From a virus, in IMG/VR virus record IMGVR_UViG_3300045988_011437, positions 1 to 42,095 of that record: DNA of 42,095 nucleotides; one strand, 5' to 3'. A model generated the notes under the pieces. It did no database searches, was not told the origin of the DNA, and saw only the letters and a list, made by a program, of their open reading frames with translations. Shown here piece by piece: positions 52 to 36,844 of the stretch. Each line of letters opens with the position of its first letter. The stretch's first letter is position 1. Made by a program: the position numbers and the translations under genes.

Positions 52-249
52 TCCCTGAAGCGCTAAAGCAGGGCAGGACTGCAATGCCGCCCAAACAATG
101 CGCTGGCAGACCGCTGTATGGGATGCGTCTCAAATAGTCTGCTTACTGCAAAGGATTTCGCCGTGGTGGACGCTATGTATGCTTGCGGGGCACATAGCTC
201 ACGGTGGGAGAATATTCAGGTGAGGCGAAAGCCGGGTACAGACGTGCCA

Positions 250-735
250 ATGACAAAGGCCAGTGGTGGGAGGCCGGTGCGTCAGACAAGGAAGGAAGTG
301 AGCAAAATGGCAAAGGTAGGATGCCCGAGAAAATACCAAAGCGTCAAGCAAATGCAGAAAGCCATTGACGCTTACTTTGAGAGCTGCAAGGGAGAACCTA
401 TTATTGGCGATGATGGACAGCCCATTATGGACAAATACGGCAACGTCATCCTGATAGGGCAGAAGCCGCCCACGATAACGGGGCTTGCGTTGGCGTTGGG
501 GTTTACGGGCAGACAAGCGCTACTTGACTATCAGGCGCGGCCTGAGTTTACGGACACGGTCACGCGCGCGAAGTCCATGTGCGAGGAATACGCGGAGGCG
601 CGGCTGTATGACCGTGACGGCGCGAACGGCGCAAAGTTCAGCTTGAGCTGCAATTTCGGGTGGCGCGAGAAAGCGCCGGAGACTGACCGGCAGGAGATCG
701 GCGTGGTGCTGATGCCGGAGGTCAGGGATGAGTAA
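250..735 (+). CDS. terS: Terminase small subunit
   Basis: ORF 118..735. The core PPTITGLALALGF...RAKSMCEEYAEARL...GAKFSLSCNFGW looks like the HTH plus oligomerisation core of small terminases. It is the first gene after the candidate late promoter and lies upstream of terL. The true start is probably internal: ATG 250, or ATG 307 preceded by GGAAGGAAG. Confidence 0.75.
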   Translation: MTKASGGRPVRQTRKEVSKMAKVGCPRKYQSVKQMQKAIDAYFESCKGEPIIGDDGQPIMDKYGNVILIGQKPPTITGLALALGFTGRQALLDYQARPEFTDTVTRAKSMCEEYAEARLYDRDGANGAKFSLSCNFGWREKAPETDRQEIGVVLMPEVRDE

Positions 736-761
736 AGCCACACTTTAAAAGGAGGCTTATT

Positions 762-1289
762 GTGGAGAATTGGAAAGTCATACATGGCACAGATGGTGCG
801 TTAGATGTAAGCGATGCGGGTCGAGTAAGGTCGAACCTGCGCGATGGGCGCATACTTAAGCAACAAAAAGACAGTAAGGGCTATTGCCGTGTCCGTGTAA
901 CCATTAACAGGCGGAAATTCTCTCTTAAAGTACATCGTGAAGTCGCAAAGGCGTTTTTGGATAATCCACAACATTTGCCGCAGGTAAACCACATTGACGG
1001 TAATAAGGAAAACAACTCGGCATCCAATTTGGAGTGGATAAGCAATGCTGACAACGCCCGGCATGCGATTAAAACAGGGCTGTGGAGCAATGTGTTCGCG
1101 GCGTCTGAAAAAACGAACAGCGCAAGAAAAACTCCGGTTGTTGCAGAAAACGAAACAACCGGGGAACGATTGTACTTCGATAGTGTGTCGGACGCAGAAA
1201 GATATTTTAACAGCAGGCACATCTCGGATGTGCTCAAGGGGAAAAGAGATCATGTCGCCGGTCATCGGTTTTATAGGGAGGTGATGTGA
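762..1289 (+). CDS. Free-standing HNH homing-type endonuclease (NUMOD4-like N-terminus plus HNH_3-like core)
   Basis: GTG start with AAAGGAGG RBS at 748..755. N-terminus WKVIHG..DVSDAGRVRS. HNH core is NHIDGNKENNSASNLEW..NARHA. The gene is inserted between terS and terL. Confidence 0.85.
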   Translation: MENWKVIHGTDGALDVSDAGRVRSNLRDGRILKQQKDSKGYCRVRVTINRRKFSLKVHREVAKAFLDNPQHLPQVNHIDGNKENNSASNLEWISNADNARHAIKTGLWSNVFAASEKTNSARKTPVVAENETTGERLYFDSVSDAERYFNSRHISDVLKGKRDHVAGHRFYREVM

Positions 1290-1290
1290 T

Positions 1291-1389
1291 ATGAATACAC
1301 CGAGTGTCGTTTGGCAGCCACAGGCCAGGCAAGCCGTCTTTATGGCAAGGCCGGAGTATGAAGCCCTTTATGGCGGGGCAGCAGGTTAG
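1291..1389 (+). CDS. terL: Terminase large subunit, N-terminal 32 codons ending in the first half of Walker A (frame-disrupted)
   Basis: ATG 1291 with RBS GGGAGGTG. It translates MNTPSVVWQPQARQAVFMARPEYEALYGGAAG and then TAG at 1387..1389. The continuation GGGKSDAL lies in another frame. Confidence 0.7.
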   Translation: MNTPSVVWQPQARQAVFMARPEYEALYGGAAG

Positions 1390-1433
1390 GCGGCGGCAAG
1401 AGCGACGCGCTGGTCATAGAGGCGCTGCGGCAG

Positions 1434-2744
1434 GTGCATATCCCCTGGTACAAGGCGCTGATCTTGCGAAAGACGTTCCCGCAGCTGCGGGAGCTGATCG
1501 ACAAGACGCTGAACTACTACCCGCGGGTATACCCCAAGGCCAGGTATAACGGCAGCAGCCACACATGGCGGTTTCCCTCCGGGGCGCAGATCGTGTTCGG
1601 CAGCATGAACCGGCCGCAAGACAAGATACAGTATCAGGGGCAGGCCTATGACTTTATCGCCTTTGACGAGCTGACGCACTTTACGCAGGAGGAATACGAG
1701 TATCTGAAATCCCGAAACCGGCCCAACGGGCCGGGGACGCGGGTGTATATGCGCTCCACGGCCAATCCCGGCGGCGTAGGCCACGGGTGGGTGAAGGAGC
1801 GCTTCATCACGGCGGCGGCGCCGATGCAGACCATCACGGAGGAGGCTGCGTGGTACACGCCGGACGGCAGGAAGCACATAGGGCAGCAGAAGCGGATCTT
1901 CGTGCCGTCCTCGGTATTTGACAACAAGATACTGATGGAAAACGACCCCATGTACGTCCAGCGGCTGGCCAGCATGCCGGAGGCGGAGCGGAACGCCCTG
2001 CTGTACGGCAATTGGGACAGCTTCGAGGGGCAGGTGTTCACGGAGTGGCGCAACGACAGCGAGCACTATATGGACCGGAAGAACACCCACGTGATCGCGC
2101 CGTTCCGGGTGCCGGAGGACTGGGTGATCTGGTGCGGACTGGACTGGGGCTATTCCCGGCCCTTTTCCGTGGGGTGGTACGCCGTGGACCGCAACAGGCG
2201 GATGTACCATATACGGGAGCTATATGGCTGCACGGGAACGCCTAACCGGGGCGTGATGTGGGAGCCAACAAAGGTGGCGCAGGAGATACGTAGGATCGAG
2301 GACGAGGACCCCAACCTGAAGGGGAAACAGATACACCGTGTGGGCGACCCGGCCATCTGGCAAAGCGACGGCACGGAGAGCGTTGGCGCGCTGATGGAGC
2401 GGCAGCGGGTGTACTTCGAGAAGGGTGACCACGCGCGGATCAACGGCAAGATGCAGGTGCACCACCGGCTGGCCTTTGACGAGGATGGAGTGCCCATGCT
2501 GTATGTGTTCAGCACCTGCAAGCATTTTATACGGACGGTGCCGAACCTGGTCTATGACCAGACGGACGTGGAGGACATCGACACCGACGGCGAGGACCAC
2601 ATCTACGACCAGCTGCGGTATGTGTGCATGCGCAACCCCATAGGGCCGCGGGAGGAATACAGGACGGTGGAGCGGCCGTATTCCCCGCTGGAGACAGAGG
2701 ACGAGTACAGGCCCAGCCGGTACGCATTTTATCAAGTGTATTAA
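1434..2744 (+). CDS. terL: Terminase large subunit, main body (frame open from 1362; GGGKS at 1389..1403)
   Basis: 436-aa ORF with ATPase and nuclease regions: ALILRKTFPQL, YDFIAFDELTHF (Walker B-like), STANPGG, and C-terminal DGEDHIYDQLRY. It sits between the HNH gene and portal. There is no start codon in this frame before GTG 1434. Confidence 0.9.
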   Translation: MHIPWYKALILRKTFPQLRELIDKTLNYYPRVYPKARYNGSSHTWRFPSGAQIVFGSMNRPQDKIQYQGQAYDFIAFDELTHFTQEEYEYLKSRNRPNGPGTRVYMRSTANPGGVGHGWVKERFITAAAPMQTITEEAAWYTPDGRKHIGQQKRIFVPSSVFDNKILMENDPMYVQRLASMPEAERNALLYGNWDSFEGQVFTEWRNDSEHYMDRKNTHVIAPFRVPEDWVIWCGLDWGYSRPFSVGWYAVDRNRRMYHIRELYGCTGTPNRGVMWEPTKVAQEIRRIEDEDPNLKGKQIHRVGDPAIWQSDGTESVGALMERQRVYFEKGDHARINGKMQVHHRLAFDEDGVPMLYVFSTCKHFIRTVPNLVYDQTDVEDIDTDGEDHIYDQLRYVCMRNPIGPREEYRTVERPYSPLETEDEYRPSRYAFYQVY

Positions 2745-2754
2745 GGAGGAGCGC

Positions 2755-4689
2755 ATGGAGAGATACGGTATCCCCGGCATCGTACCGGAGGAGCAGGACA
2801 TGGCGCCGGAGATGGCGGCCATGCTGCTGCAGCGGACAGAGCAGACGCCCACCATCACGGACCGGGACGTGGAGCGGGGCATCGACCTGCTGACGAAGTA
2901 CAAGGACGGCAAGAGCAACCTGGAAAACCGCATCGTCAACGACGAGCTGTGGTGGGAGCTGCGGCACTGGGAGGGCATCGGTCAGAGCAAGGCAAAGCGG
3001 GTGGACAAAAGCGGCAAGGAGGTCACGTCTACGCCGCCGGAGCCCAAGCCGTCCTCTGCGTGGCTGTTCAACACCATTCAGAACAAGCACGCCGACGCGA
3101 TGGACAACTACCCGGAGCCGGTGGTATTGCCCCGGGAGCGCAGCGACGAGCAGAGCGCCAAGACGCTGAGCCAGATATTGCCGGTGGTGCAGGAGTACAA
3201 CCACTTCGAGCAGGTGTACTCCGACAACTGGTGGGAGAAGCTGAAGCACGGCACGGCGGTGTACGGCATTTTCTGGGATCCGCAGAAGGACAACGGACTG
3301 GGCGACATCGAGATACGGGACATCGATCTGCTGAAGCTGTTTTGGGAGCCGGGCATCACGGACATCCAGAAGAGCCGGAACCTGTTTATCGTAGACCTGG
3401 TGGACAACGACCTGCTGGACAGCGAGTACCCGCAGCTGAAGGGCAAGCAGAAGGGCAAGGTCGTGGACGTGAAGGAGTACATCTACGACGACAACGTGGA
3501 CACCAGCGACAAGAGCGTGGTGGTGGACTGGTATTACAAGGTCAAGACGCCGGATGGCAGGACGGCGCTGCACTACATCAAATTCGTGGGCTCCACGCTG
3601 CTGTACGCCAGCGAGAACGACCCGGAGTACCGGGAGCGGGGCTTTTATGACCACGGTATGTATCCGGTGGTGCTGGACGTGATGTACCCGGAGAAGGGTA
3701 CCCCCATCGGCTTCGGCTATGTGGCCATCTGCAAGGACCCGCAGCTGTACATCGACAAGCTGAGCGCCAACATTCTGGAGAACGCCATGATGGCCACGAA
3801 AAAGCGTTTCTTTGTCAGCGACACCACGGCCATCAACGAGCAGGAGTTTTTGGACTGGAACCGGCCGCTGGTGCATGTGAACGGGCCGCTGGACGACGGG
3901 CGCATACAGGAGATCGTGACGCAGCCGCTTTCCGACATCTATGTGACTGTGGCGCAGATGAAGATCGAGGAGATGAAGGACACGGCGGCCAACCGTGATG
4001 TGAACTCCGGCGGTACCACCAACGTGACCGCGGCGGCGGCCATTGCAGCTTTGCAGGAGGCGGGCAACAAGGCCAGCCGTGACATGATCGCCGCCAGCTA
4101 TCGGGCGTATACGCAGATCAACACACTGTGCGTGGAGCTGATGCGGCAGTTTTACGACCTGAGCCGCAGCTTCCGCATTACAGGTGAGGGCAGCGAGTAC
4201 CAGTTTATCGACTTCGACAACACCGGCTTGCAGGACCAGGTGACCGGACTGGATACGATGGGCAATCCCATGTTCCGCCGGCCGGTGTTTGATTTGAAGA
4301 TCAAGGCGCAGAAGAAAAACCCCTTTAGCCGCATGGAGCAGAACGAGCGGGCCAAGGAGCTGTACGCAATGGGCTTTTTCGCGCCGGAGAACGCGCAGGC
4401 CAGTTTGATCGCGCTGGACATGATGGACTTTGAGGGCATACAGACGGTGAAGGAGAAGGTCATGCAGGGGCAAACGCTGCTGAACATGGTGATGCAGATG
4501 AGCCAGCAGTTGGCGGCGATCACCGGCGTTCTCATGCCCCAGGAGGAGACGCAGGCAGGCGGCGGCACCAATGCCGCAGAGAGCGGCGGAGGCGGCGGGA
4601 ACGGCCTTGCAAGCGGCATCATGGAGGCGCAGACGCCCATGACCGGGTACGGGCAGGCGCTTGCCAAGCGGAGCACACCCAGCGTATGA
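2755..4689 (+). CDS. Portal protein
   Basis: 644 aa, immediately downstream of terL with a GGAGG RBS. Size and position are typical. The acidic/Gly-rich C-terminal tail is common in portals. Confidence 0.8.
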   Translation: MERYGIPGIVPEEQDMAPEMAAMLLQRTEQTPTITDRDVERGIDLLTKYKDGKSNLENRIVNDELWWELRHWEGIGQSKAKRVDKSGKEVTSTPPEPKPSSAWLFNTIQNKHADAMDNYPEPVVLPRERSDEQSAKTLSQILPVVQEYNHFEQVYSDNWWEKLKHGTAVYGIFWDPQKDNGLGDIEIRDIDLLKLFWEPGITDIQKSRNLFIVDLVDNDLLDSEYPQLKGKQKGKVVDVKEYIYDDNVDTSDKSVVVDWYYKVKTPDGRTALHYIKFVGSTLLYASENDPEYRERGFYDHGMYPVVLDVMYPEKGTPIGFGYVAICKDPQLYIDKLSANILENAMMATKKRFFVSDTTAINEQEFLDWNRPLVHVNGPLDDGRIQEIVTQPLSDIYVTVAQMKIEEMKDTAANRDVNSGGTTNVTAAAAIAALQEAGNKASRDMIAASYRAYTQINTLCVELMRQFYDLSRSFRITGEGSEYQFIDFDNTGLQDQVTGLDTMGNPMFRRPVFDLKIKAQKKNPFSRMEQNERAKELYAMGFFAPENAQASLIALDMMDFEGIQTVKEKVMQGQTLLNMVMQMSQQLAAITGVLMPQEETQAGGGTNAAESGGGGGNGLASGIMEAQTPMTGYGQALAKRSTPSV

Positions 4690-4964
4690 CAGAGGTGACG
4701 ATGCACCGCGGGGACAGCTGCTCTGTCAGGTGCAGGGGACACGCCACGGGCGCACCGGACGTTTGTGCGGCGGTAAGCTGCCTCATGTACACGGCGGCGG
4801 GGTGGCTGCACAACACGCAGGAGGCGGAGCTGGTGTATGAAAAGCTGGACAGCGGGGATGCGTACCTGCGTTGGCACGGCGGGGAATGGCTGTACGACCT
4901 GCTGAAGATCGGCTTTTTGCAGCTGGAAAAAGCGGCGCCGAAAAAAATTTCTGTAAAATTTTGA
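4686..4964 (+). CDS. prp: Prp-family cysteine protease (ribosomal-processing protease homologue, DUF464-like)
   Basis: 92 aa with an ATGA overlap with portal. Motif GHATGAPDVCAAVSCL carries the His and Cys arranged as in Prp proteases. Confidence 0.8.
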   Translation: MTEVTMHRGDSCSVRCRGHATGAPDVCAAVSCLMYTAAGWLHNTQEAELVYEKLDSGDAYLRWHGGEWLYDLLKIGFLQLEKAAPKKISVKF

Positions 4965-4989
4965 AAATTCCACTTTTAAGTGGAAAAAT
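4961..4989 (+). promoter_or_regulatory. Candidate late promoter, copy A: TTGAAA-17 nt-AAAAAT with palindrome TTCCACTT-TT-AAGTGGAA in the spacer
   Basis: Read directly. The identical architecture recurs at 41899..41927. The -10 is weak because it lacks the first T, which suggests activator dependence. Confidence 0.45.
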
Positions 4990-5010
4990 CAGAAAAAGCA
5001 ATGGTACCGT

Positions 5011-5047
5011 GGGAGGTGCAGAGGCGAACTCTGTACCTCCCTTTTGT
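5011..5047 (+). terminator. Conserved 12-bp stem-loop plus T-tract (intrinsic terminator or antitermination target), copy A
   Basis: GGGAGGTGCAGA / loop GGCGAAC / TCTGTACCTCCC, then TTTTGTT. It starts 22 nt after the -10, the same spacing as the copy at 41949..41994. Confidence 0.55.
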
Positions 5048-5146
5048 TCCGGGCGGCGGGGCGGCGGTTATGAGACACCGCTTCGCCGCAGGAACGGGGA
5101 CGCCACACGGGAGCGACATGCCCGCGCATTATTAGGAGGACAAGAT

Positions 5147-6103
5147 ATGTACCTTTTTGACATGAGCCTTTGCCTGTTTGACGGCGAGGGCGGCGGGGCG
5201 GCAGCTCCCGCAGCACAGGGCGAGACACAAGCGAGCACTGGTACCACCCGCCAGGGCAAAACGGGCGCACTGAGCGACGTGAAGTACGGCAAACAGCCGG
5301 AGAGCGAAGCACAGACGGAGCAGCAGCCTGACGCCGGGGCTGAGGAGAAGGTGAAGGACGTGGAGACCGCGTCCGACGCGCTGGAGGCCAAGAAAAAGGC
5401 TTTCAGGGAGTTGATCAACGGGGAGTACAAGGACCTGTACACCCAGGAAACGCAGCGGATGATCGACCGGCGCTTTAAGGAGGCGCGGGAGAACGAGAAG
5501 CGGATGAAATCCTACCAGCCGGTGCTGGATACGCTGATGGAGCGTTACGGCATCGACGACGGGGACGCCGCGCGGCTGCTGGAGGCCGTGGACAACGACC
5601 ACGCCTACTGGAGCGAGGCCGCCGAGGAGGCGGGCATGAGCGAGGAGCAGTACAAGGAGTTCCGCCGGCTGAAGCGGGAGAACGCCGAGCTGCTGCGGAG
5701 CCAGCAGGAGCAGCAGCAAAACGAGTTTTTCCGGGCGCAGGGCGAGAAGTGGTACAAGGAGGCGGAGGCCATGAAGGGCAACCCCCTGTACCAGGGCTTC
5801 GACCTGATGCAGGAGCTGCAGAACCCGGAGTTTCTGAGCCTGCTGAAGGCCGGGACACCGGTGGAGCACGCCTACCGCGTGCTGCATTTCGACGAGCTGA
5901 TGGGCAGCGCGGTACAGGCCGCGGCCGCCAGCACGGAAAAGAAGGTGGCAGACTCCGTCCGCGCAAAGGGCAATCGTCCCAACGAAAACGGCACCAACTC
6001 CAACAGCGCGTTCGTAACAAAGACGGATCCCTCAAAGCTGACAAGGGCAGACTTTGAGGAGATCGAGCGGAGAGTGGCAAGAGGCGAACGCATTTCGTTC
6101 TGA
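5147..6103 (+). CDS. Scaffolding protein (putative)
   Basis: ATG 5147 with TAGGAGGA RBS. The 318-aa protein is E/K/Q-rich and predicted helical, and lies directly upstream of the major capsid gene. N-terminus MYLFDMSLCLFDGEGG carries the shared LxLFDG motif. Confidence 0.65.
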   Translation: MYLFDMSLCLFDGEGGGAAAPAAQGETQASTGTTRQGKTGALSDVKYGKQPESEAQTEQQPDAGAEEKVKDVETASDALEAKKKAFRELINGEYKDLYTQETQRMIDRRFKEARENEKRMKSYQPVLDTLMERYGIDDGDAARLLEAVDNDHAYWSEAAEEAGMSEEQYKEFRRLKRENAELLRSQQEQQQNEFFRAQGEKWYKEAEAMKGNPLYQGFDLMQELQNPEFLSLLKAGTPVEHAYRVLHFDELMGSAVQAAAASTEKKVADSVRAKGNRPNENGTNSNSAFVTKTDPSKLTRADFEEIERRVARGERISF

Positions 6104-6148
6104 TCTCTCACGGCTCCGCTGCGATATGCTGAAAGGAGCTATGAAACT

Positions 6149-7432
6149 ATGATGAATACCATTTGTGACCTGTACCTGATGCCGGTGGTGCTGAACCTGT
6201 TTGACGGCAACACCAACACCACCCTGGACGCCGGCTTGTCCGACGAGATGAAGACGTATTACTCTATGCGTCTTATCAATCTGGCCGAGCCGGAGCTTAT
6301 CCATGACCAGTTTGGCCAGAAGCATCCTATCCCCAAGAACAGCGGCAAGACCATCGAGTTCCGCAAGTACGACAGCCTGCCCAAGGCGCTGGTGCCCCTG
6401 ACCGAAGGTGTGACCCCCGCCGGCCAGAAGCTGAGCATGGGCGTCATCCGTGCGACCATCAAGCAGTACGGTGGTTACATCGAGCTGTCCGACATCCTGG
6501 AGCTGACCGCTATTGACAACAACCTGGTGCAGGCCACCCGCCTGCTGGCCTCTCAGGCCGGCCGTACCTCCGACACCATCACCCGCGAGGTGCTGGCAGG
6601 CGGCACCAACGTGGTGTATGCCGGCGGCGCCAAGGACAGAAGCGAGCTGGTGGGCGGCGACGCCACTGAGGCCAACAACAAGTATCTGAGCGTGGACGAC
6701 ATCCGCAAGGCCGTCCGTGCGCTGAAGGTCATGAACGCCCAGAAGATCAACGGCTACTTCGCGGGTATCATTCACCCCGATACCGCCTATGACCTGATGA
6801 GCGACAAGAAGTGGGTGGACGTGAAGACCTACTCCGACCCCGACGGTATCTATGAAGGCGAGATCGGCAAGATCGAGGGCGTCCGTTTCGTAGAGACCAC
6901 CGAGGCAAAGATCTTCCACGCCCCCGACCTGGTGATCGCCGACGGCAGCAACGCCGCTGTTCGTGACCTGACCGTCAAGAGCGCGTCCGGCAAGGTCATC
7001 ACCGTCACCGAGGCCCTGAGCACCAACCAGGCTGCCGCGCTGACCGGCCGCGAGATCCTGGTGGGCAGCGAGCTGATGGAGGTGGCGTCCGCGGCCGCAG
7101 GTGCTGCCGGTGCTGCGACCATCACCGTGAAGGACAGCCCCGCAACCACGCCTGCCGCGTCTACCGTGATCTATCCCGGTGAGGGCGGCGCAAAGGGCCG
7201 CGACGTGTATTCCACCCTGATCGTGGGCGCCGACGCATACGGCGTGACCGAGCTGGAGGGCGGCGGTCTGCAGCACATCGTGAAGCAGCTGGGCTCCTCC
7301 GGCACCGCTGACCCGCTGAACCAGCGCGCCACCGCCGGCTGGAAGCTGACCAAGGTGGCCGAGCGACTGGTGGAGCAGTACATGGTGCGTATCGAGTCCG
7401 CCTCTACCTTTGAGAGCGGCCTGATGAACTGA
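6149..7432 (+). CDS. Major capsid protein (HK97 fold, N4-gp56-like family)
   Basis: 427 aa. The region PKNSGKTIEFRKYDSLPKALVPLTEGVTPAGQKL...IKQYGGYIELSDILELTAID..TRLLASQAGRTSDTITRE resembles the N4-gp56 capsid family as I recall it. Position after scaffold fits. Confidence 0.85.
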   Translation: MMNTICDLYLMPVVLNLFDGNTNTTLDAGLSDEMKTYYSMRLINLAEPELIHDQFGQKHPIPKNSGKTIEFRKYDSLPKALVPLTEGVTPAGQKLSMGVIRATIKQYGGYIELSDILELTAIDNNLVQATRLLASQAGRTSDTITREVLAGGTNVVYAGGAKDRSELVGGDATEANNKYLSVDDIRKAVRALKVMNAQKINGYFAGIIHPDTAYDLMSDKKWVDVKTYSDPDGIYEGEIGKIEGVRFVETTEAKIFHAPDLVIADGSNAAVRDLTVKSASGKVITVTEALSTNQAAALTGREILVGSELMEVASAAAGAAGAATITVKDSPATTPAASTVIYPGEGGAKGRDVYSTLIVGADAYGVTELEGGGLQHIVKQLGSSGTADPLNQRATAGWKLTKVAERLVEQYMVRIESASTFESGLMN

Positions 7433-13390: not shown

Positions 13391-13741
13391 ATGACGGTTA
13401 CAGATACCATTTCGCAGGCGGACGAGCTGCGGCTGAACACCATAAGCGACGAGCAGAAAGCGGCGTGGGTGATGGGGCTGGACCAGCAGATTGGGGAGAG
13501 GATCGATATGGACTCCTACGTACACAGTTGGCCGGCGGGCGACGGGGAGCTGCTGCTCCCCGCGCCCTACGACCGGGTGTATGTGCTGTATCTGTGCAGC
13601 CAGATCGACTACTACAACAACGAAACGGCGCTGTATGGCAACGACAAGGCGGTGTATGACGAGGCGATGAGTGAGGCGATGGCGTGGTGGCGCCGGCAGC
13701 ACTGCCCGGACAACACCGGGAATGTGCAGGTGATGGGATGA
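13391..13741 (+). CDS. Head-tail connector/adaptor-like protein (putative)
   Basis: 116 aa. The pattern YVLYLCSQIDYYNNETALYGNDKAVYDEAMSEAMAWWRR resembles gp6-like connector proteins. Weak, by recollection only. Confidence 0.45.
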   Translation: MTVTDTISQADELRLNTISDEQKAAWVMGLDQQIGERIDMDSYVHSWPAGDGELLLPAPYDRVYVLYLCSQIDYYNNETALYGNDKAVYDEAMSEAMAWWRRQHCPDNTGNVQVMG

Positions 13742-15273
13742 GACTGGCAAGCCTGCCCTATTCCCTGAACCCCAACAAGGTGGAGATGGTGCAGATGCGA
13801 GGCATCAACTGGTCGGATGCCATACAGAACGGCGATTTGCGGGACAGCCTGAATTTGTCGGCCAGACGGTGGCCGTACATCACCACGCGGAAAGGAAGGT
13901 TGAAGCAGACCGGGTACAAGAATGTGACGGCGCTGACATCGTGGGACAAGCTGGTGGCGGTGCAGGGGACTTCCCTGTTGTACGACGGGCAGACGGTGGG
14001 CACGGTGACGGCGGGAAAGAAGCAGTTTGCCGTGGTGAATACCAAGATGGTGATATGGCCGGACAAGGTGTATCTGGACATCAAGGACCAGACCGTAAAG
14101 CCGCTGGCGGCGGAGATCACCGGCAGCAAGGCCACGTTTGCCACTAACAAAATAACCGTGAACGGCTGGGCGGACCTGACCACGAAGTTCAAAGCGGGCG
14201 ACGGCGTGACACTTTCCGGCTGCACATCCAAGACGGAGAACAACAAGGATTTTGTCATTAAGGCGGTCACCTCCAACACGATCACGGTGGCGGACAACAC
14301 ATTTACGGCGGTGAACGAGGCCAGCACCAGCATTAAGATCGAGCGAAAGATACCGGACCTGGACTACATATGCGAGAGCGAAAACCGGCTGTGGGGCTGC
14401 GACAACGACACGCAGACCATATACGCCAGCGCGCTGGGCGACCCCACGAATTTTTACGTGTATGAGGGACTATCCACAGACGCCTATACGCTGGCAGTGG
14501 GCACGGAGGGGAAATTCACCGGCTGCTGCAAGCTGAGCTCTTCGGTGCTGTTCTGGAAGGAGACAAAGCTGCACAAGATGCTGGGCAGCTATCCGGCGGA
14601 GTACGCCATGTACACCTACGAAATGGAGGGCTTGCAGGATGGATGTCAGAAAAGCCAGCAGGTGATCAACGACACGCTGTTCTATAAAGGCCCTCACGGG
14701 GTATACGCCTATTCCGGCGGCACGCCGGTGCTGATCAGCGACAACTTCGGCGAGAAGGAGTTTACCGATGCGGTAGCCGGCAACGACGGAGACAGCTACT
14801 ACCTGAGCGTGAAGGACGGCGCGGAGCACCGGTTAATGGTGTACGAGACCAAGACCGGGATATGGGTGCTGGAGGACGGCACGGAGGCGGTGGACTTTGC
14901 GCGGCTGGGCAAGAAGCTGTACATGCTGGCGGGCGGCGACGTGTACCTGCTGGATGGCGAGGACACGCCGCAGGCGCAGGAGTGGATGGCGCAGTTCGCC
15001 CCCATGTATGAGACCATCGACGGCAAGAAAGCGTATTCCAAGATACTGATGCGGCTGGAGCTGCCGAAGGGCAGCTACATGACGGCACAGATGCGCTGCG
15101 ACGGAAAGCCGTGGCAGACGTGCGGCAAGGTGGTGGGCAAGGAGCACAACGTGACCAGCCTGCGGCTTGCGGCCAACCGGTGCGACAAATTTGAGCTCAG
15201 GCTGGAGGGCAAGGGCCCGTGCACCATACTGGGCATATCGAGAGCGTTTATGGTGGGGAGTGATGTGAAATGA
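13738..15273 (+). CDS. Large virion protein (tail/nozzle-like, beta-rich)
   Basis: ATG 13738 overlaps the previous stop (ATGA). 511 aa. Function is inferred only from position. Confidence 0.55.
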   Translation: MRLASLPYSLNPNKVEMVQMRGINWSDAIQNGDLRDSLNLSARRWPYITTRKGRLKQTGYKNVTALTSWDKLVAVQGTSLLYDGQTVGTVTAGKKQFAVVNTKMVIWPDKVYLDIKDQTVKPLAAEITGSKATFATNKITVNGWADLTTKFKAGDGVTLSGCTSKTENNKDFVIKAVTSNTITVADNTFTAVNEASTSIKIERKIPDLDYICESENRLWGCDNDTQTIYASALGDPTNFYVYEGLSTDAYTLAVGTEGKFTGCCKLSSSVLFWKETKLHKMLGSYPAEYAMYTYEMEGLQDGCQKSQQVINDTLFYKGPHGVYAYSGGTPVLISDNFGEKEFTDAVAGNDGDSYYLSVKDGAEHRLMVYETKTGIWVLEDGTEAVDFARLGKKLYMLAGGDVYLLDGEDTPQAQEWMAQFAPMYETIDGKKAYSKILMRLELPKGSYMTAQMRCDGKPWQTCGKVVGKEHNVTSLRLAANRCDKFELRLEGKGPCTILGISRAFMVGSDVK

Positions 15274-16532: not shown

Positions 16533-19500
16533 ATGGGCTGGAAGCAGACATTTCAGAAGAAAATGAAAGCTGCGGGGATGGAAAACGACATCCCCGCAGC
16601 AAGCCGGACAAGCCGCAATGCAGACAGCGGCGGGTGGCAGGATAAGTTCCGCAGCAAAATGGAAGCTGCCGGCATGGGCGGCGATATTATCCGCACCGGC
16701 GGCAGAACGGCAGCGGATGTGGCGCCCAGCACCTATAAGCCGGACACGTCTATGCTGGTTACGCCGGGCGTGCCTGCGGGAAACGCAACAAGTGCGGCGG
16801 GGAAATATAACGTGGGCCAGGGCTTGGCAAAAGCCGGACAAATGGGCCTGACACAGATCGCCAAAGTGGGCAGCTCTGCCGGCGCATGGATAGAGAACCT
16901 GCTGGGTGATTTTGCCCGGGAGGGCTCCAACGGCTACTGGGACCCGGACACCAGCAACTGGCTTTTCAACCGCTGGAACCGGGCTATTGACGCGGAGGCG
17001 CAGGGGGTGCAGCAGCGGTACGCAGAAAACACGGCACGCGGCGGGAAAGCGGCGCAGGTTTTTGAAGACCTGGGTGCGGCGACGGTGGCGGCGGTGCCGC
17101 AAGCCATTGCGGCGCTGTTGACCGGCGGCGCCAGCACGGCGGCACAGGCAGGTGCACTGGCGGAAAACGCGGCGGCTTCCTCCGGGTTGGTCAACACCAT
17201 TTCCCGCAGTATGCGGGCAATGGTGAAAGATCCGAACTTCCAGCTCTCCTTTGCACAGGTATTTGGCCCCGGGTATGAGCAGGCAAAGGCGGACGGCGCG
17301 GACGATTTCCGCGCTTCCGTGTACGCCATCGGCAACGGACTGATGAACGCCGCCGTGGAAGTGGGCGGCGGTATCCAGACGCTGCCACGGGAATTGCAGA
17401 ACGGCGGCAGCGCATGGAAAGCATGGGTGGACACCATGCTGGACGAGGGCAAGGAGGAAGTGGTGCAGGGCGTGATCGAACGCGCCACGCAGAACGCCGT
17501 CTATGGACGGGACAACCCCCTTGTCGGTATCGGCAACGGCGCCATTTTTGACCCGGCGGCAGCGGCGGAGGAATTTGCCGGTGGCGCTGTGGTTGGCGGT
17601 ATCCTGGGCGGCGGGCAGGTGGGCGTGAACACCCTTGCCAACCGTTCGGCATACAACGCGGCCAGAGCGCAGTATGACCGGGACGTGCGGCAGAACACCG
17701 CGCCGGAGATGGACGGCAGGACGGCGGAAGCCGTGGAGGCGGTGACCCGGGGCGAGACGATCACCGGCAACCAGGCGGCAGCCATTGCACGGGACCCGGT
17801 GGCCGTGGAGACACTGGAGGCCAGCACCGGGGTAAAGCTGGACACGGAAAAGCCCATCAGCCAGCTCAAACGTGAAATTATCGCCCTTGCAAGCCGCGAG
17901 ACAGCGCAGGAGCAGACACAGCGCGCCCCGGCTATCCCCCAGACGCAGAAACGCGCACAGAAAGCCGTGGGCGGCTTTATGGAGGCGGGTCAGAGAGCGT
18001 ATCAGCAGGTGCGGGAGACAAGCGGCAGCGGCGCGGAGGTGTACGCAGGCTTTTCCGCCATGTACAACGCGGGATTGAACGGCGTTGAGGCGGAAAAGGC
18101 CAAGGGCAAGTACGCGGCGATGCTGACGCCGGAGCAGCAGTACACGGCGTACAACGCAGGGCTGGAGGACGCCAGGGCGCAGGTGGCACGGGAGAATGCG
18201 GACGTAGCATACGTGACCACCACGGCAGGAGCAGGTTTGGCGGACAATGCCTACAGCCGGTACATCATCGCCAAAGACAAGGGCGCGGCCTCGACGCTGA
18301 ACACTATCGGAAAGAAGCTGGGCGTGCGTATCGAGTTCGTGGACAGCATTATGGATGGGCAGGCCAACGGCCAGTACATCAGGGAGAAAAACCTGATCCA
18401 GATCGCGGCGGACAGCACGAACCCCATCTATGAGGTGGCGGGGCACGAGGTCACCCACCGGATGCAGGACCTATCCCCCGACGAGTACCGGGCGTTCCGG
18501 AAGGCGGCGATAGAGTACCGCATGCGGGAGAACGGCGCGGACACGGAAACGGAGGTCGTGCAGCGGTACATGGAGGCGGCAGAGAGAGCCGGCATAACGC
18601 TGACGCAGGACGAGGTGATGGACGAGATCGCCGCAGACTTTGCGGGGCGGATGATCGAGGACACGGATCTGTTCGCGCGGTTTGCCAAGGACAACCGCAC
18701 GGCGGCGCAGAAGCTGTTGGACGGGCTGAAGGAATTTATTGCCAAAGTCAAGGCTATGTTCACCGGCAAGGCAAGAGACAACGCGGCGATGGATGCCTAC
18801 GGCAAGACCTTCGGAGAGCTGGAGGACATTGCGCAGAAGTGGCAGGCGGCTTTTGACGCGGCGGAGCGGCAGGCGGAGAAAACAAAAACCGCCGCCGGTG
18901 AGGGAAGCGGTGCAAAGTATCAGATCAAGCAGTTCCCCAATGGCATGAAATACGTTCAGGCGGACAGACAAGTGTTATTTGGCAACGACCCCAAGGCGTG
19001 GAGTGAACAGCTGGAAAACTATATCAACGGCAAAATCCGCAATCACGAGGATGTTCGCCTGATTGCCGAGGACGGCGATGTTCTGCTCCTGACAAGTAAA
19101 TCTGCCGGGAAGCTGAGTAGCATTTACGACAACAATGGTCGAACGATGGATGAAAAAGCATTTGAACGTAAAGCAAATGCGGCTGCTCACATCGACGAAC
19201 TCATTAAAGTTTCTGAGCGCGGAGGAAAGACTGTCCTTGACTTTGGCGGGCGTCACGGTGACATGGCAAAAGACGGCTGGAACTATCGAACGGCGTATTT
19301 CATGGATTTTGATGGAAAGTATTATCGAACGCGCATTTCCGTTGCGCTGGGTAAGGATGGGAGCATTGTCTACAATATCGGGGAAATGCAAGAAAGAAGC
19401 ACTCCCCAAATTAACGGCTCTTCCGGAAACTCCGGCGCTCAGCGGGGGAATGCTTCTGCTAATAGTATACCCACCGAGGGCGGAAATGTCAAGCCGAAGT

Positions 19501-22500
19501 TTTCGCTGAAGGCTTACTCGGAGGCGGAGAAAAAAGATCATGTAAAATCCGCAAAGGAATTTTTCGGCAAGACGTACAGCTGGAACGAGACCGGGTACAT
19601 CACCACGGACGGCACAAAGCTGGACTTTTCCGGCAGGCATGATGGCGGTCCCGGCGGCTACCGCACTGTGGACCACCGTGACATCCGCGATGCGCTGGGG
19701 CTTGACTACGGCGGCGAAGATTACAGCGGCGCAATGGTGCAGTTTATGAGCGAGGGCAATATCCGCATCAGCCCGGAAAGCGGCGGCATCAATCTGTCGG
19801 TCATGCCCACAAAGGCGCAGCTGGACACGCTGGCTGACTTTATCAGTAAAAACCGCGGCGAGGTGATACTGGATCTGGACGACACCAACGGAAACACCGT
19901 GTCCAGCACGGAATATCCGAAGGGAACGCACAGCAGCAAGGTCATCAACGACATAAGGGCGTACTTTGAGAACGGAACGGTGCCGCAGGCATCTGAGCTG
20001 AGCCAGTTCCGGTATCAGCTGCGGAGTACGGCGGACATTGAACAGGAGGTGCGGGACCTGAAACGGGAGCGCACGGTACTGTCCAGCCGCAACCGCGCAT
20101 TGGAACAGCGGGTGCAGGAGCTGAAGGGCGAAATGCGTATCAGTAAGGAGCCGTCCGTAGTGCTGCGGGACGTGAAAAAACTGGGGCGCGAGACCATACG
20201 CAAGTACGGCAGCGACGTGAAATACGGAGACATTCAGGCCGACATGGAGGCGCTGGGCAAGGCTGTGATGAAGAAAGACGTGAGCATGGCCGACCTGATG
20301 CCCTACGCCAGAAACGCGGCGACGGCCATCGTGGACAACACGACGGAGCTGACGGAGCACGGCGCGGAGCTGCTGGAGATCAAAGACTACCTGAAGCGGC
20401 AGAAGATCCTTTTCAACGGGGAGATGGACCACTACAACGAGTTCCGCAAGCGGTACATGGGAACGCTGAAGCTGAACAAGTCGGAGGGCTTGCCGGTGGA
20501 CACCATGTACGAGGAAATGACGGAGATGTTCGGCGAGGGCTATTTCCCCAGCGACGTGTATACCGAGGCGGACAAGCTGCAGCAGATCGCGGATGTGCTG
20601 GACAGCATGGACAGCATTTATGAAAACCCCTTTGACAGCTACCGTGACGCAGCCATTCAGGAGATCGCCAACGACATCATTGACGGCATGATCTCTGACC
20701 AGGTGCGGCAGAAGAAGACCTTTGCCGACCGGCGGGAGCTGGAGAAGCAGGAGGCCGTGGGACGGGTGCGTGAAATGCTGACAAAGGAGCGGGAAAAGCG
20801 CCGGGACATGGTGAAGCGGATGCGCCGGGAGTACAGCGAGAAGACCCAGAAGGGCCGGGAGAAGCGGTACGCCGCGGAGATGCGTGCAAAGATCGCCAGA
20901 CACACGGGGCCTTTGTCCGAAAAGCTGCTGCGACCCACGGACAAAAAGCACATTCCGGAGGAGCTGCGCGTGGTGGTGGCCGATCTGCTGCGGAACATCA
21001 ACCTGGAGAGCGCATACAGCTACGACGAGAACGGACGGCTGCGGAAAAACGCCGGCGGCGACCCGACCCGACGGACGCAGGAGGCCGTAAAGCTGAAAAA
21101 GGCATACGAGGACATCATTGCCCGTGAGGCGAACATGGTGGTGGACCCCGATTTGCTTGACAGCGGCGGTCTGCTGGACAGCCTGGCGGCGCTGGGCGGA
21201 AAGCGTATCGCCGACATGAACGTGACGGAGCTGGAGACCGTATGGAATGCGGTGCGGGCCATCGAGGCCACGCTGACCAGCTACGACCGGACGCTGGCGA
21301 ACCAGAAGTACGCACGGACCAGCGAGTGGGCGGACAGCCTTATGATGGGCAGTATGAGCCGGAAGCGGCGGAACCGGAAGATCTCACTGGATATGGCGGA
21401 CCCGTATACGTTCTTCTCCGCCTACGGCGACGGCGGCATGCAGGTATACCGGACGCTGCGGAACGCGCAGGACCGGGAGCATGTGATGCTGACGGAGCTG
21501 CGGGACGCGGCTAAAAAGTTCCTGGATGCGGACGTGTACAAAAACCGCTTTGAACGGCACACGTTCACCACAAGCCGGGGCGTGGAGCTGACGCTGACCA
21601 ACGAGCAGATCATGAACCTGTACAACCTGGCAAAGCGCGGTGAGCAGGCCATGAACCACCTGATGGTGGGCGGCATCGTGCAGCCGGAGATCGAGCGGGA
21701 CGGCAAGCTGAAAGCCATCCCCCGCGGGACGGAGAACATCCTGCTGACGCTGGAGGACGTCAGGGCCATCACCTCCGTGCTGACACCGGAGCAGATCAAG
21801 GTGGCGGACGGATTGCAGAAGCTGGCCAGCACGAAGCTGGCGGAGTGGGGCAACGAGGCCAGCATGGCGGTGTACGGCTACCGCAAGTTCATGGAAACGC
21901 ATTACTGGCCCATCAAGACGGCGAAGGAGGCCACGGCATCCAGCGTGGAGAAGGGACCGGACATCGCCAGAGAGATCAAGAATATGGGCAGCGCAAAGGC
22001 CCTGACGCCAAACGCCAGCAACGCGCTGGACATCGGCGGCGTGTATGACGTGTTCGCGCAGAACGCCAGCGACATGATCAAGTACGCCACGCTGCTGGCC
22101 CCGATGGAGGACATCAACCGGCTGTACAACTACCGGTACCGGGACAGCATGGGCAACCTGACCGGGAAGAACGTGCGGCAGGTGCTGTCCGGCGTGTACG
22201 GCGACGCGGCGCAAAGCTACTGGCGAAACCTGATGCGGGATGTGCAGAACGGCATGGTGAAGAACGCCAGCGCCACCACAAGGGCCGTGGAGCGCATCGT
22301 GGGCAACACAAAAGGCGCCGCGGTGGGGGCGAACCTGCGCGTGGTCATCCAGCAGCCCACGGCGTACTTCCGGGCGGCGGTGGTGCTGGACCCGGAGAAC
22401 ATGGCGAAGGGCCTGGGCAACGGCGTGACCAAAGGCAACGGATGGGACAAGGCACGAAAGTGGGCGCCCATTGCGGGCATCAAGGACACGTCCGGCTTTG

Positions 22501-36843: not shown

Positions 36844-36844
36844 C

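What the first reader, a model, noticed from the sequence alone, without database searches (positions are those of the whole stretch)
1366..1436. terL frame is broken exactly inside the Walker A motif; a 5-nt Gly-to-Gly hop over TAG would restore it
What the sequence shows:
- ATG 1291 (RBS GGGAGGTG) opens ...PEYEALYGGAAG and stops at TAG 1387..1389.
- The rest of terL is in the frame of 1434..2744. That frame is open from 1362 and reads L-GGGKSDALVIEALRQ-V-HIPWYKALILRKT, but has no ATG, GTG or TTG before GTG 1434.
- The P-loop is therefore split between two frames, and the ORF-track version of TerL has no P-loop at all.

Possible recoding:
- The DNA is GCA GGT TAG GCG GCG GCA. The Gly codon GGT (1384..1386) is followed directly by a stop.
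- A synonymous Gly codon GGC (1389..1391) lies 5 nt downstream in the needed frame.
- Re-pairing there gives YGGAAGGGKSDAL, which fits [AG]xxxxGK[ST].
- A -1 slip (GGT then TTA) would give AAGLGGGKS, which also fits.
- Short hops over stop codons between matching codons have been described in E. coli.

Alternatives are a 2-nt (TA) insertion or assembly error, or an inactivated terminase in a defective prophage.
Basis: partly seen in the sequence, partly recalled or inferred. Interest (0 to 1): 0.62.

Follow-up and report, generated by a model that had tools for sequence, protein, structure and literature searches.

The report
Five-base ribosome hop in terminase
This gut phage's essential DNA-packaging gene carries five extra bases, including a stop codon, inside its ATP-binding motif; over 100 related phage genomes keep the same insert under selection, so ribosomes most likely hop over it, and it came in with a selfish nuclease gene.

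Summary
terL starts at ATG 1291, stops at TAG 1387-1389 inside the Walker A codons, and continues in the frame of 1389-2744.

One detail differs. Intact relatives show the window has 5 extra bases, not 2. Only a +5 hop from GGT 1384-1386 to GGC 1389-1391 gives their exact P-loop, YGGAAGGGKS.

It is not an error or a dead gene:
- The same GGT-TAG-GC site is in 103 other viral contigs and 6 MAG contigs.
- Their TerL is only 63-95% identical to this one.
- Each side varies at third codon positions in its own frame, and the roughly 450-codon downstream frame stays open.
- One insert-bearing lineage has 1757 protein variants and no intact relative closer than 81%.

The window's nearest intact relative (97% DNA identity) lacks both the insert and the HNH gene at 762-1289. 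Both lie in one cassette (735 to about 1400) that recombines between phages.

All 10 loci with this HNH family next to terL have interrupted P-loop DNA. None of about 170 intact loci has the HNH.

Best reading: a stop-hop that tolerates a target-site disruption spread by a homing endonuclease, a miniature of T4 gene 60/MobA. This scan had already noted the same site on other DNA.

The parts
118..735 (+). terS, the small terminase subunit (GP3_package family). Its last 7 nt before the stop overlap the relic of the ancestral terL start.
   Evidence: Pfam PF16677, E 1.9e-21. Window 195-734 aligns with the terS of the intact relative L002 at 94%.
728..734 (+). ATGAGTA, the relic of the first 7 nt of the ancestral terL. 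It marks the left junction of the inserted cassette.
   Evidence: Window and L002 are identical up to ...GGGATGAGTA and then diverge. In L002 this ATG is the terL start (MSSVVW...).
735..1302 (+). A 568-nt segment absent from the closest intact relatives. It carries the HNH gene and a new RBS and start for terL.
   Evidence: BLAST of L002 and L003 against the window: 1-539 matches 195-734, and 539 onward matches 1303 onward. Alignment A1.
762..1289 (+). Free-standing HNH endonuclease of the homing type (NUMOD4 + HNH_3 + I-HmuI-like NUMOD), 175 aa, GTG start.
   Evidence: Pfam NUMOD4 47.2 bits, HNH_3 31.3 bits, I-HmuI_NUMOD-like 21.4 bits (below its cut-off). Orthologues of 51-63% identity sit in the same place in L011, L314 and L319-L324.
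1276..1283 (+). Shine-Dalgarno sequence GGGAGGTG for terL, inside the 3' end of the HNH gene.
   Evidence: Sequence. The same 28 nt (1263-1290) are kept in L007, which has no HNH gene.
1291..1386 (+). terL part 1: 32 codons, MNTPSVVWQPQARQAVFMARPEYEALYGGAAG, ending in the first half of Walker A.
   Evidence: dN/dS is 0-0.11 in this frame between insert-bearing lineages. Third-position periodicity is in this frame.
1303..1400 (+). Replaced, diverged copy of the terL 5' end that travels with the cassette. It is the counterpart of the HomR segment of the T4 MobA element.
   Evidence: Identity to L002 is 77.5% over 1303-1386, 92% over 1392-1440 and 97% beyond. The same segment is nearly identical to L007 and L009, whose remaining terL is only 75% and 88.6% identical.
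1384..1386 (+). Proposed take-off codon GGT (Gly).
   Evidence: GGT in 103 of 103 contigs although the pattern allowed GGN. 47 of 47 distinct site sequences. GGC in the MAG contig L317.
1387..1389 (+). TAG stop codon directly after the take-off codon. Its G is the first base of the landing codon.
   Evidence: TA is invariant in 47 of 47. Host MAGs encode RF1, so UAG is a genuine stop.
1387..1391 (+). The 5 extra nucleotides relative to intact relatives. Placement is ambiguous: GGTTA 1384-1388, GTTAG, TTAGG or TAGGC 1387-1391 all fit.
   Evidence: Alignment A1 with L002, L003 and L004 shows a 5-column gap.
1389..1391 (+). Proposed landing codon GGC (Gly). It is the first GGN triplet 3' of the take-off codon.
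   Evidence: GGC in 101 and GGT in 2 of 103 contigs, although the pattern allowed GGN. The next two Gly codons vary among GGC, GGG, GGT and GGA.
1392..2744 (+). terL part 2: GGKSDALVIEALRQ... to the stop. It holds the rest of Walker A, the ATPase and the nuclease domain.
   Evidence: The joined product matches Pfam Terminase_6N (2e-12) and Terminase_3 (1.9e-07). It is 99% identical to the intact 480-aa P0001. dN/dS is 0.04-0.2.

Best explanation
**What it is.** terL is encoded in two frames, separated by a 5-nt insert placed between Gly codons of the Walker A motif.

**Proposed decoding (inferred).**
- The ribosome translates from ATG 1291 to GGU 1384-1386 and meets UAG in the A site.
- Peptidyl-tRNA-Gly, the GGY-reading isoacceptor, unpairs from GGU.
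- The mRNA slips 5 nt and the tRNA re-pairs with GGC 1389-1391.
- Decoding resumes at GGC 1392. The product is a 482-aa TerL with the canonical P-loop YGGAAGGGKS.
- Ribosomes that terminate instead release a 32-aa peptide.

**Origin.**
- Shown by comparison: the insert belongs to a mobile cassette (window 735 to about 1400). The cassette comprises an I-HmuI-like HNH endonuclease gene, a new RBS, a diverged copy of the terL 5' end, and the insert.
- Shown by comparison: the cassette replaced the start of an ancestral, uninterrupted terL and recombines between diverged phages.
- Inferred: the HNH enzyme cuts or nicks uninterrupted P-loop DNA of competing phages. The insert destroys that target in the carrier. 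This would be the logic of T4 gene 60 and MobA in miniature.
- Shown by comparison: lineages that later lost the HNH gene keep the insert.
For: **1. Exact restoration.** All 204 intact homologues read GG[AS]AGGGK[ST], and the close ones read EALYGGAAGGGKSDAL. Only the +5 hop gives this.

**2. Conservation.**
- 103 viral contigs and 6 MAG contigs carry GGY-TAG-GY at this site. TerL there is 63-95% identical to the window's.
- 52 distinct full-length joined proteins were recovered.
- The take-off third base and TA never vary, and the landing codon is always GGY. Flanking GCN and GGN codons vary in 9-25 of 47 distinct sequences.

**3. Selection.**
- Third-position periodicity switches frame exactly at the site.
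- dN/dS is 0-0.11 upstream and 0.04-0.2 downstream.

**4. Fixation.** The main lineage's miscalled protein cluster has 1757 members. Every N-terminus read that reaches the P-loop shows the interrupted (landing-frame) form. The nearest intact protein among 5.8 billion is 81% identical.

**5. No alternative start.** The landing frame upstream has stops in the window, L009, L007, L011, L178 and L103.

**6. Cassette.** L002 and L003 (97% identity) lack both the HNH gene and the insert. The junctions are mapped. The insert-bearing 5' segment is shared with phages whose remaining terL is 75-90% identical. The insert state falls in 7 clades of the TerL tree.

**7. HNH link.**
- All 10 contigs with this HNH family next to terL have interrupted P-loop DNA. 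They are the window, L014, L011, L314 and L319-L324.
- The inserts lie at different codons and have different lengths: 5, 5+5, 6 and 10 nt. Nearly all have a stop after the take-off codon and a synonymous landing codon.
- None of 107 intact loci from one search, none of 65 from another, and none of the 5 intact relatives L002-L006 carries the HNH.

**8. Precedent.** Synthetic stop-hops in E. coli, and gene 60 with MobA (PMC5009743; 10.1101/2022.08.31.505936).
Against: - There is no direct evidence of the product. No reads, RNA, ribosome-profiling or peptide data were available.
- Short stop-hops in E. coli constructs are inefficient, as far as I recall (about 1% or less in ordinary contexts).
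- No stimulatory RNA structure was detected.
- Hosts have RF1, so termination competes with the hop.
- Most insert-bearing phages have no HNH gene nearby. Only the window, L014, L011 and L314 do among the window-type sites. Present-day self-protection therefore cannot explain why they keep the insert.
- Two related interruptions lack a matching landing codon: GCC TGA GTT in L323, and GGC TGAGC AAG in L320, L399, L409 and L410. A simple matched-codon hop does not cover every case.
- The HNH cleavage site is unknown.
Confidence: 0.7

Rival explanations
1. A -1 ribosomal frameshift at GGU_UAG. After Gly the ribosome slips back one base, reads UUA (Leu) and continues. The product is TerL with AAGLGGGKS, two residues longer in the P-loop.
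For: It reaches the same frame, and a stop in the A site favours shifting.
Against: - There is no slippery sequence. The base before GGT is A or C in all 47 distinct sites, so tRNA-Gly would have to re-pair with AGG or CGG.
- None of 204 intact homologues has the two extra residues.
- It does not explain why the landing codon is held to GGY.
- It does not explain why independent inserts elsewhere in the P-loop all place a synonymous codon at +5, +6 or +10.
- In the double-gap genes (L321) it would add four residues and lose the first Walker position.
Confidence: 0.1
2. The insert is kept mainly as a translational throttle or sensor. It would keep TerL scarce, or tie its synthesis to RF1 activity or growth state, rather than protect against a homing endonuclease. 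The HNH association would be only how the insert spread.
For: - Most insert-bearing phages have no HNH gene yet keep the insert. The main lineage shows no revertant among 1757 variants.
- A regulatory role has been proposed for the bypass candidates in the phage Hau3 terminase (PMC10732093).
Against: - Interruption and HNH adjacency coincide in 10 of 10 cases. The inserts differ in position and length, as expected for target disruption and not for a tuned regulator.
- Most relatives manage without any insert.
- The two ideas do not exclude each other.
Confidence: 0.2
3. Dead gene or artefact. The 5 nt would be an assembly or sequencing error, or an inactivating mutation in a defective prophage whose packaging is supplied in trans.
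For: The record is a metagenome assembly of a temperate phage (integrase at 27113-28216). Reads could not be inspected.
Against: - The identical site occurs in at least 15 IMG datasets, in ENA and Logan assemblies and in NCBI MAGs.
- The downstream frame stays open for about 450 codons in 85 complete copies across up to 37% protein divergence.
- dN/dS is well below 1 on both sides.
- The record is classed as complete with terminal repeats.
Confidence: 0.03
4. Two-piece or re-initiated TerL. The downstream part would be translated on its own, from a start in the landing frame or from GTG 1434, and would work without the N-terminal 32 residues or together with them as a separate peptide.
For: In the main lineage gene callers find an ATG in the landing frame upstream (476-aa P0121, MEAAAQAG...RRRSRLGGGKSD).
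Against: - In the window the landing frame is closed by TGA 1359-1361 and has no start before GTG 1434, which lies after the P-loop.
- Stops also occur in L009, L007, L011, L178 and L103. 12 of 37 distinct sequences have no usable start.
- The out-of-frame N-termini are not conserved (P0121 against P0122). The ATG-frame peptide is conserved.
Confidence: 0.03

Closest known systems
Phage T4 gene 60 translational bypass carried by the MobA HNH homing-endonuclease element (10.1101/2022.08.31.505936; PMC5009743)
   Same: - The take-off codon is Gly, is followed directly by UAG, and is matched by a Gly landing codon.
- The interrupted gene is essential.
- The insert is part of a mobile element made of an HNH gene, a diverged replacement copy of the target gene segment (77.5% identity here, 67-81% for HomR) and the coding gap. 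The element ends at or just after the landing codon.
- Close relatives lack the whole element.
- Some lineages lost the endonuclease but kept the gap.
   Different: - The gap is 5 nt instead of 50.
- No take-off hairpin was detected here.
- The gene is terL, not topoisomerase, and it is not split into two genes.
- The hosts are gut Oscillospiraceae, not Gammaproteobacteria.
- The HNH is NUMOD4/I-HmuI-like, and homology to MobA was not shown.
- The hop, its efficiency and any nascent-peptide signal are untested.
Synthetic 'stop-hops' and +5/+6 hops in E. coli constructs (Weiss et al. 1987, as reviewed in PMC5009743)
   Same: Matched codons flank a stop codon. Peptidyl-tRNA re-pairs a few nucleotides downstream. 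The distance is +5 here, and +6 and +10 in related loci.
   Different: Those are engineered sequences with low efficiency. The 2016 review states that no natural in-frame stop-hops are known. Here the site is natural, lies in an essential gene and is conserved in more than 100 genomes.
Candidate UUA-triggered bypass of 10-nt (7-nt) inserts in Streptomyces phage Hau3 and prophage terminase genes (PMC10732093)
   Same: Short frame-breaking inserts in a phage large terminase gene at highly conserved protein positions. The argument is the same: frameshifting would add residues, so bypass is favoured.
   Different: - Those inserts start with a rare sense codon (UUA), not a stop.
- They are found in 3 of 100 genes.
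- They are proposed to be regulatory, sensing host tRNA.
- No homing endonuclease link was reported.
- The hosts and the TerL family are different.
Byp elements of Magnusiomyces capitatus mitochondria (cited in 10.1101/2022.08.31.505936)
   Same: Many short mobile inserts in essential genes that are tolerated through translational bypass.
   Different: They are 27-55 nt long, occur in mitochondria, spread like GC-cluster elements, and have no endonuclease partner.

Membership tests
Programmed translational bypassing / hopping (gene 60 type) | Take-off and landing codons are cognate to the same peptidyl-tRNA. | tested here: met
   GGT 1384-1386 and GGC 1389-1391. GGY/GGY in all 103 viral contigs and 6 MAG contigs.
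Programmed translational bypassing / hopping (gene 60 type) | A slow-to-decode codon (stop) lies in the A site at take-off. | tested here: met
   TAG 1387-1389 is invariant. Host MAGs encode RF1.
Programmed translational bypassing / hopping (gene 60 type) | Stimulatory mRNA structure at the take-off site or in the gap. | tested here: not met
   Folding z-scores are -0.57, +1.88 and -1.19 against shuffles. A 5-nt gap cannot hold a hairpin.
Programmed translational bypassing / hopping (gene 60 type) | One polypeptide is made from the two frames, with the junction as predicted. | not testable with these tools
   Needs expression and mass spectrometry.
Programmed translational bypassing / hopping (gene 60 type) | Both ORF parts are under purifying selection, and the site is conserved among relatives. 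| tested here: met
-1 programmed ribosomal frameshift | Slippery heptamer X XXY YYZ, or at least a P-site codon that can re-pair in the -1 frame. | tested here: not met
   The sequence is GCA GGT TAG or GCC GGT TAG. The -1 codon AGG or CGG is not cognate for tRNA-Gly.
Large terminase subunit (Pfam Terminase_6N / Terminase_3) | Match to the family model above the curated cut-off. | tested here: met
   Terminase_6N scores 47.7 bits (cut-off 22) and Terminase_3 scores 31.3 bits (cut-off 23.2) for the joined product.
Large terminase subunit (Pfam Terminase_6N / Terminase_3) | Intact Walker A in one reading frame. | tested here: not met
   The motif is split between two frames at 1386/1389. It is restored only by the +5 hop.
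Free-standing HNH homing endonuclease (I-HmuI / NUMOD type) | HNH catalytic domain plus NUMOD DNA-binding modules. | tested here: met
   NUMOD4 scores 47.2 bits and HNH_3 scores 31.3 bits, both above cut-off. I-HmuI_NUMOD-like scores 21.4 bits, below its cut-off of 27.
Free-standing HNH homing endonuclease (I-HmuI / NUMOD type) | Presence/absence polymorphism between close relatives, with a co-converted flank. | tested here: met
   Absent from L002 and L003 (97% identity). The flank 1303-1386 is only 77.5% identical to L002 and is shared with distant phages.
Free-standing HNH homing endonuclease (I-HmuI / NUMOD type) | Cleaves or nicks the allele that lacks the element, near the insertion site, and spares its own allele. 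| not testable with these tools
   Only the association is shown: 10 of 10 HNH-adjacent terL genes are interrupted, and none of about 170 intact loci has the HNH.

The most novel reading that the evidence does not exclude
The window's site would be one member of a whole class of mini coding gaps. The class includes gaps of 5, 6 and 10 nt, sometimes two per P-loop, each a stop codon plus a copy of the preceding codon. I-HmuI-like HNH homing cassettes would create or spread them in the Walker A DNA of phage terminase genes. Short-range ribosome hopping would then be a common natural anti-homing immunity device in gut and rumen phages, not a laboratory curiosity.
Probability: 0.5. Interest if true: 0.9.

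Novelty: new variant of a known kind. Interest (0 to 1): 0.8.

Why it matters
- **Rarity.** Programmed bypassing is accepted for very few natural genes: T4 gene 60 and its homologues, and yeast mitochondrial byps. Short stop-hops are known only from synthetic constructs. A natural, conserved 5-nt hop in an essential gene of abundant gut phages would give the field a second, much simpler and very diverse system.
- **Material for mechanism.** There are hundreds of natural variants of take-off context, landing codon and gap length to compare.
- **Evolution.** The case links recoding to the conflict between homing endonucleases and their targets.
- **Annotation.** These terL genes are currently called as hypothetical or truncated proteins, such as the 476-aa P0121 cluster of 1757 sequences. 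Such phages could also be misjudged as defective.

Tried and rejected
- **TAG read as a sense codon.** The ATG frame still ends at TAG 1417-1419 after 9 more codons, so the frame is not restored.
- **Phage-encoded special tRNA.** ARAGORN finds no tRNA in the window.
- **Hosts lacking RF1.** prfA is present above the cut-off in the three MAGs that hold such prophage contigs.
- **Stimulatory RNA structure.** Folding is no better than shuffles.
- **Solved TerL relative, to check P-loop spacing.** There is no PDB sequence hit at E <= 0.01.
- **Annotated phage isolate with the site.** Only 8 unannotated 'Bacteriophage sp.' faecal records matched, at 65-70% identity.
- **Start in the landing frame.** It is not conserved.
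- **GGTTAGGC as a repeated motif in the window.** There are 2 matches against 1.0 expected, so it is not a dispersed element.
- **Stop-codon usage of the phage.** My crude ORF set was contaminated by antisense ORFs, so I drew no conclusion.
- **Literature.** No paper holds terminase + Walker A + homing endonuclease + frameshift together.
Full report
**1. The observation**

The window is a complete IMG/VR virus record of 42,095 bp with direct terminal repeats. It belongs to a temperate tailed phage. Identified genes are:
- terS at 118-735;
- a P22-like portal at 2755-4689;
- the major head protein at 6149-7432;
- an integrase on the minus strand at 27113-28216.

- ATG 1291 is preceded by GGGAGGTG.
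- It opens MNTPSVVWQPQARQAVFMARPEYEALYGGAAG and ends at TAG 1387-1389.
- The frame starting at 1389 reads GGGKSDALVIEALRQVHIPWYK... to 2744.
- That frame is closed upstream by TGA 1359-1361. Its first possible start is GTG 1434, which lies beyond the P-loop.
- Joined by the proposed hop, the product matches Terminase_6N and Terminase_3.

**2. Size of the lesion**

The joined protein has thousands of homologues. The closest, P0001, is an uninterrupted 480-aa TerL that is 99% identical. All close relatives read EALYGGAAGGGKSDAL.

The DNA of P0001 (L002, L003) reads TAT GGC GGC GCG GCC GGC GGC GGG AAG. The window reads TAT GGC GGG GCA GCA GGT TAG GCG GCG GCA AG. The window therefore has 5 extra bases, not 2.

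The three possible decodings give different products:

| Decoding | Product | Compared with relatives |
|---|---|---|
| +5 hop (GGT 1384 to GGC 1389, next codon 1392) | AAGGGKS | identical |
| TA deletion or +2 shift | AAGGGGKS | one extra residue |
| -1 shift | AAGLGGGKS | two extra residues |

**3. Real and functional, not an error or a pseudogene**

I searched IMG/VR with a pattern that left the third base of the take-off and landing codons free. It returned 103 contigs. All are this terL site. Upstream they read ...[EALY/ECLF]GGAAG then TAG, and the frame 5 nt on stays open for about 450 codons.
- The take-off codon is GGT in 103 of 103.
- The landing codon is GGC in 101 and GGT in 2.

The GTDB genome collection gave 6 more copies and one chance hit that is not terL. 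The copies are in MAGs of Oscillibacter, Ca. Flemingiibacterium, Oscillospiraceae and other Clostridia. One copy has take-off GGC.

The joined proteins comprise 52 distinct full-length sequences. They are 63-95% identical to the window's.

Among 47 distinct 185-nt site sequences:
- variation is concentrated at third codon positions in the ATG frame upstream of the site;
- downstream it is concentrated at third positions of the +5 frame;
- GGT and TA never vary, while the adjacent GCN and GGN codons vary in 9-25 sequences.

dN/dS is 0-0.11 for the 26 codons before the site. It is 0.04-0.2 for the downstream part.

The largest lineage is miscalled by gene finders as a 476-aa protein starting in the wrong frame (P0121). 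Its 90% cluster has 1757 member sequences. Every N-terminus read that reaches the P-loop shows the interrupted (landing-frame) form. The nearest uninterrupted protein in the 5.8-billion-protein collection is only 81% identical. The insert is therefore fixed in that lineage. It is not a minority variant or an artefact.

A separate start in the landing frame cannot be the general solution. That frame contains stops upstream in the window, L009, L007, L011, L178 and L103.

**4. The cassette**

L002 and L003 are 96.8% identical to the window over 1303-7000. In them terS overlaps terL directly. They have neither the HNH gene nor the 5 nt.

*Left junction.* The sequences are identical up to ...GGGATGAGTA (window 734). 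This includes the first 7 nt of the ancestral terL.

*Right junction.* It is gradual:

| Window segment | Identity to L002 |
|---|---|
| 1303-1386 | 77.5% |
| 1392-1440 | 92% |
| beyond 1440 | 97% |

The diverged 5' segment is almost identical to that of L007 and L009. Their remaining terL is only 75% and 88.6% identical to the window's. L007 even keeps the last 28 nt of the HNH gene without the gene itself.

On a tree of the post-P-loop part of TerL (204 intact and 49 insert-bearing sequences), the insert state falls into 7 separate clades.

From these comparisons I conclude that the insert travels by recombination, together with a replacement copy of the terL 5' end and, in some phages, the HNH gene. 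This is the architecture described for the MobA element of T4-like phages: an HNH gene, a diverged HomR segment of 67-81% identity, and a bypass cassette ending at the landing codon (10.1101/2022.08.31.505936).

**5. Link to the HNH gene**

The 175-aa protein at 762-1289 has NUMOD4 and HNH_3 domains and a weak I-HmuI NUMOD-like match. It is dispensable, because the nearest relatives lack it. It is not of the short packaging-accessory HNH type.

Orthologues of 51-63% identity lie between terS and terL in two groups of phages:
- L011, L314 and L014, which carry window-type sites;
- L319-L324, whose TerL is only about 43% identical to the window's.

Every one of the second group also has interrupted P-loop DNA, but the interruptions differ:

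| Locus | Interruption |
|---|---|
| L324 (= L015) | GGC TA GGC, one codon further 3' than in the window |
| L321 | GCA TA GCC and GGT TA GGC, two gaps in one P-loop |
| L322 | GGT TAGTTAG GGC, a +10 hop |
| L319 | GCC TGA GCA, in frame, +6 |
| L320 | GCA TA GCC, plus GGC TGAGC AAG |
| L323 | GCC TGA GTT |

A retrieval by TerL similarity gave 75 scorable loci:
- 10 were interrupted, and 3 of these have the HNH.
- 65 were intact, and none has the HNH.
- Further interruption types appeared in L403, L408, L409, L410, L399 and L477.

None of 107 intact loci from the window's own family carries the HNH. A third TerL family (L306 group) has GGT TA GGT and no HNH nearby.

In total, all 10 HNH-adjacent terL genes are interrupted, and none of about 170 intact ones has the HNH. 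The sampling is not random and the loci are related. I therefore treat this as a strong association, not as a calibrated P value.

The inserts lie at different codons and have different lengths, yet share one design: a stop codon directly after a codon, and a synonymous codon a few bases on. That points to repeated selection for inserts that both disrupt the DNA site and can be hopped.

**6. Mechanism**

*Shown by sequence comparison:*
- There are two frames, both under selection.
- GGY-UAG-GY is invariant.
- Only the +5 re-pairing restores the family P-loop exactly.

*Inferred:*
- Peptidyl-tRNA-Gly, the GGY reader, detaches when UAG occupies the A site and re-pairs with the first GGY triplet downstream.
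- In L322 the first Gly triplet after take-off is GGG at +9, in the wrong frame. The GGC at +10 is the right one. This fits a GGY-specific tRNA.

*Not found:*
- any stimulatory RNA structure;
- any phage tRNA;
- any absence of RF1 in the hosts.

Efficiency is unknown. Short hops are inefficient in E. coli constructs. A packaging ATPase may not be needed in large amounts, and the G-rich codons upstream could act as an internal Shine-Dalgarno sequence. That last point is speculation.

Two related interruptions have no fully matching landing codon: L323, and the GGC TGAGC AAG gap. They remain unexplained.

**7. Comparison with what is known**

The closest system is T4 gene 60 with MobA. It has the same take-off logic (Gly codon plus UAG) and the same kind of mobile element. 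Its gap is 50 nt with a hairpin, and it lies in a different gene.

The decoding event itself resembles the synthetic +5 and +6 stop-hops reviewed in PMC5009743.

Candidate bypass of 10-nt UUA-led inserts has been proposed for the terminase of Streptomyces phage Hau3 (PMC10732093). That precedent concerns the same gene class, but with another trigger and no endonuclease link.

My library searches found no description of stop-containing mini-gaps in terL P-loops.

This scan's own notes already record the same GGT-TAG site on another genome. They also record 6-, 7- and 42/43-nt gaps in terL P-loops beside HNH genes. I used those notes as leads and re-derived the evidence here.

This window adds three things:
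- a clean occupied-versus-empty pair that maps the cassette;
- the count of carriers;
- the set of differently interrupted P-loops beside orthologous HNH genes.

**8. Verdict**

My confidence is:
- about 0.9 that this is a genuine, selected recoding site;
- about 0.7 that the decoding is the +5 hop and the cassette origin is as described;
- about 0.55 that the insert's role is protection from the HNH enzyme.

Noticed in passing
L321:2939-4396: The TerL of this HNH-bearing, doubly interrupted locus is about 50 aa longer than its relatives. After ...DLDTDGEDH it continues CLRGDTQVLTDEGYKDIQSLVG..., which looks like the start of a Hint/intein domain inserted in the nuclease region. That would be a third kind of selfish insertion in the same gene.
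   Followed up: no
L323:1950-2000 (same contig as L401): There is an in-frame GCC TGA GTT CGT in the P-loop, with no synonymous landing codon after the stop. The downstream 435-codon frame is intact. The decoding is unexplained. It could be readthrough with two extra residues, a mismatched hop, or a recent defect.
   Followed up: partly
L320:3120-3150; also L399, L409, L410: A second gap, GGC TGAGC AAG, is conserved in several lineages. The +5 triplet is AGC, which pairs with tRNA-Gly at only two of three positions. A perfect codon match is therefore not universal.
   Followed up: partly
L306, L308, L309, L310 (site near L306:4628): A third, unrelated-looking TerL family (ILYGGAAGG|GKSHLMRV...) has GGT TA GGT one codon further 3' than in the window. 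No HNH gene lies nearby, and a terS-like gene sits directly upstream.
   Followed up: partly
window 16533-23642 (+): A single 2369-aa ORF matches phrog_22978 (unknown function, E 1.6e-291). It follows an internal-virion-protein homologue at 13684-15273. It is probably a giant ejection or tail-associated protein of this podovirus-like phage.
   Followed up: no
window 36824-37918 (+): A PAPS-reductase-like protein (phrog_424) lies in the early/replication region.
   Followed up: no
protein cluster of P0121: Public gene calls for the main insert-bearing lineage start in the wrong frame (MEAAAQAG...RRRSRLGGGKSD) or after the P-loop, and the three members that carry any name are labelled 'hypothetical protein' (most have none). 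This is a systematic mis-annotation of 1757 terL sequences.
   Followed up: yes
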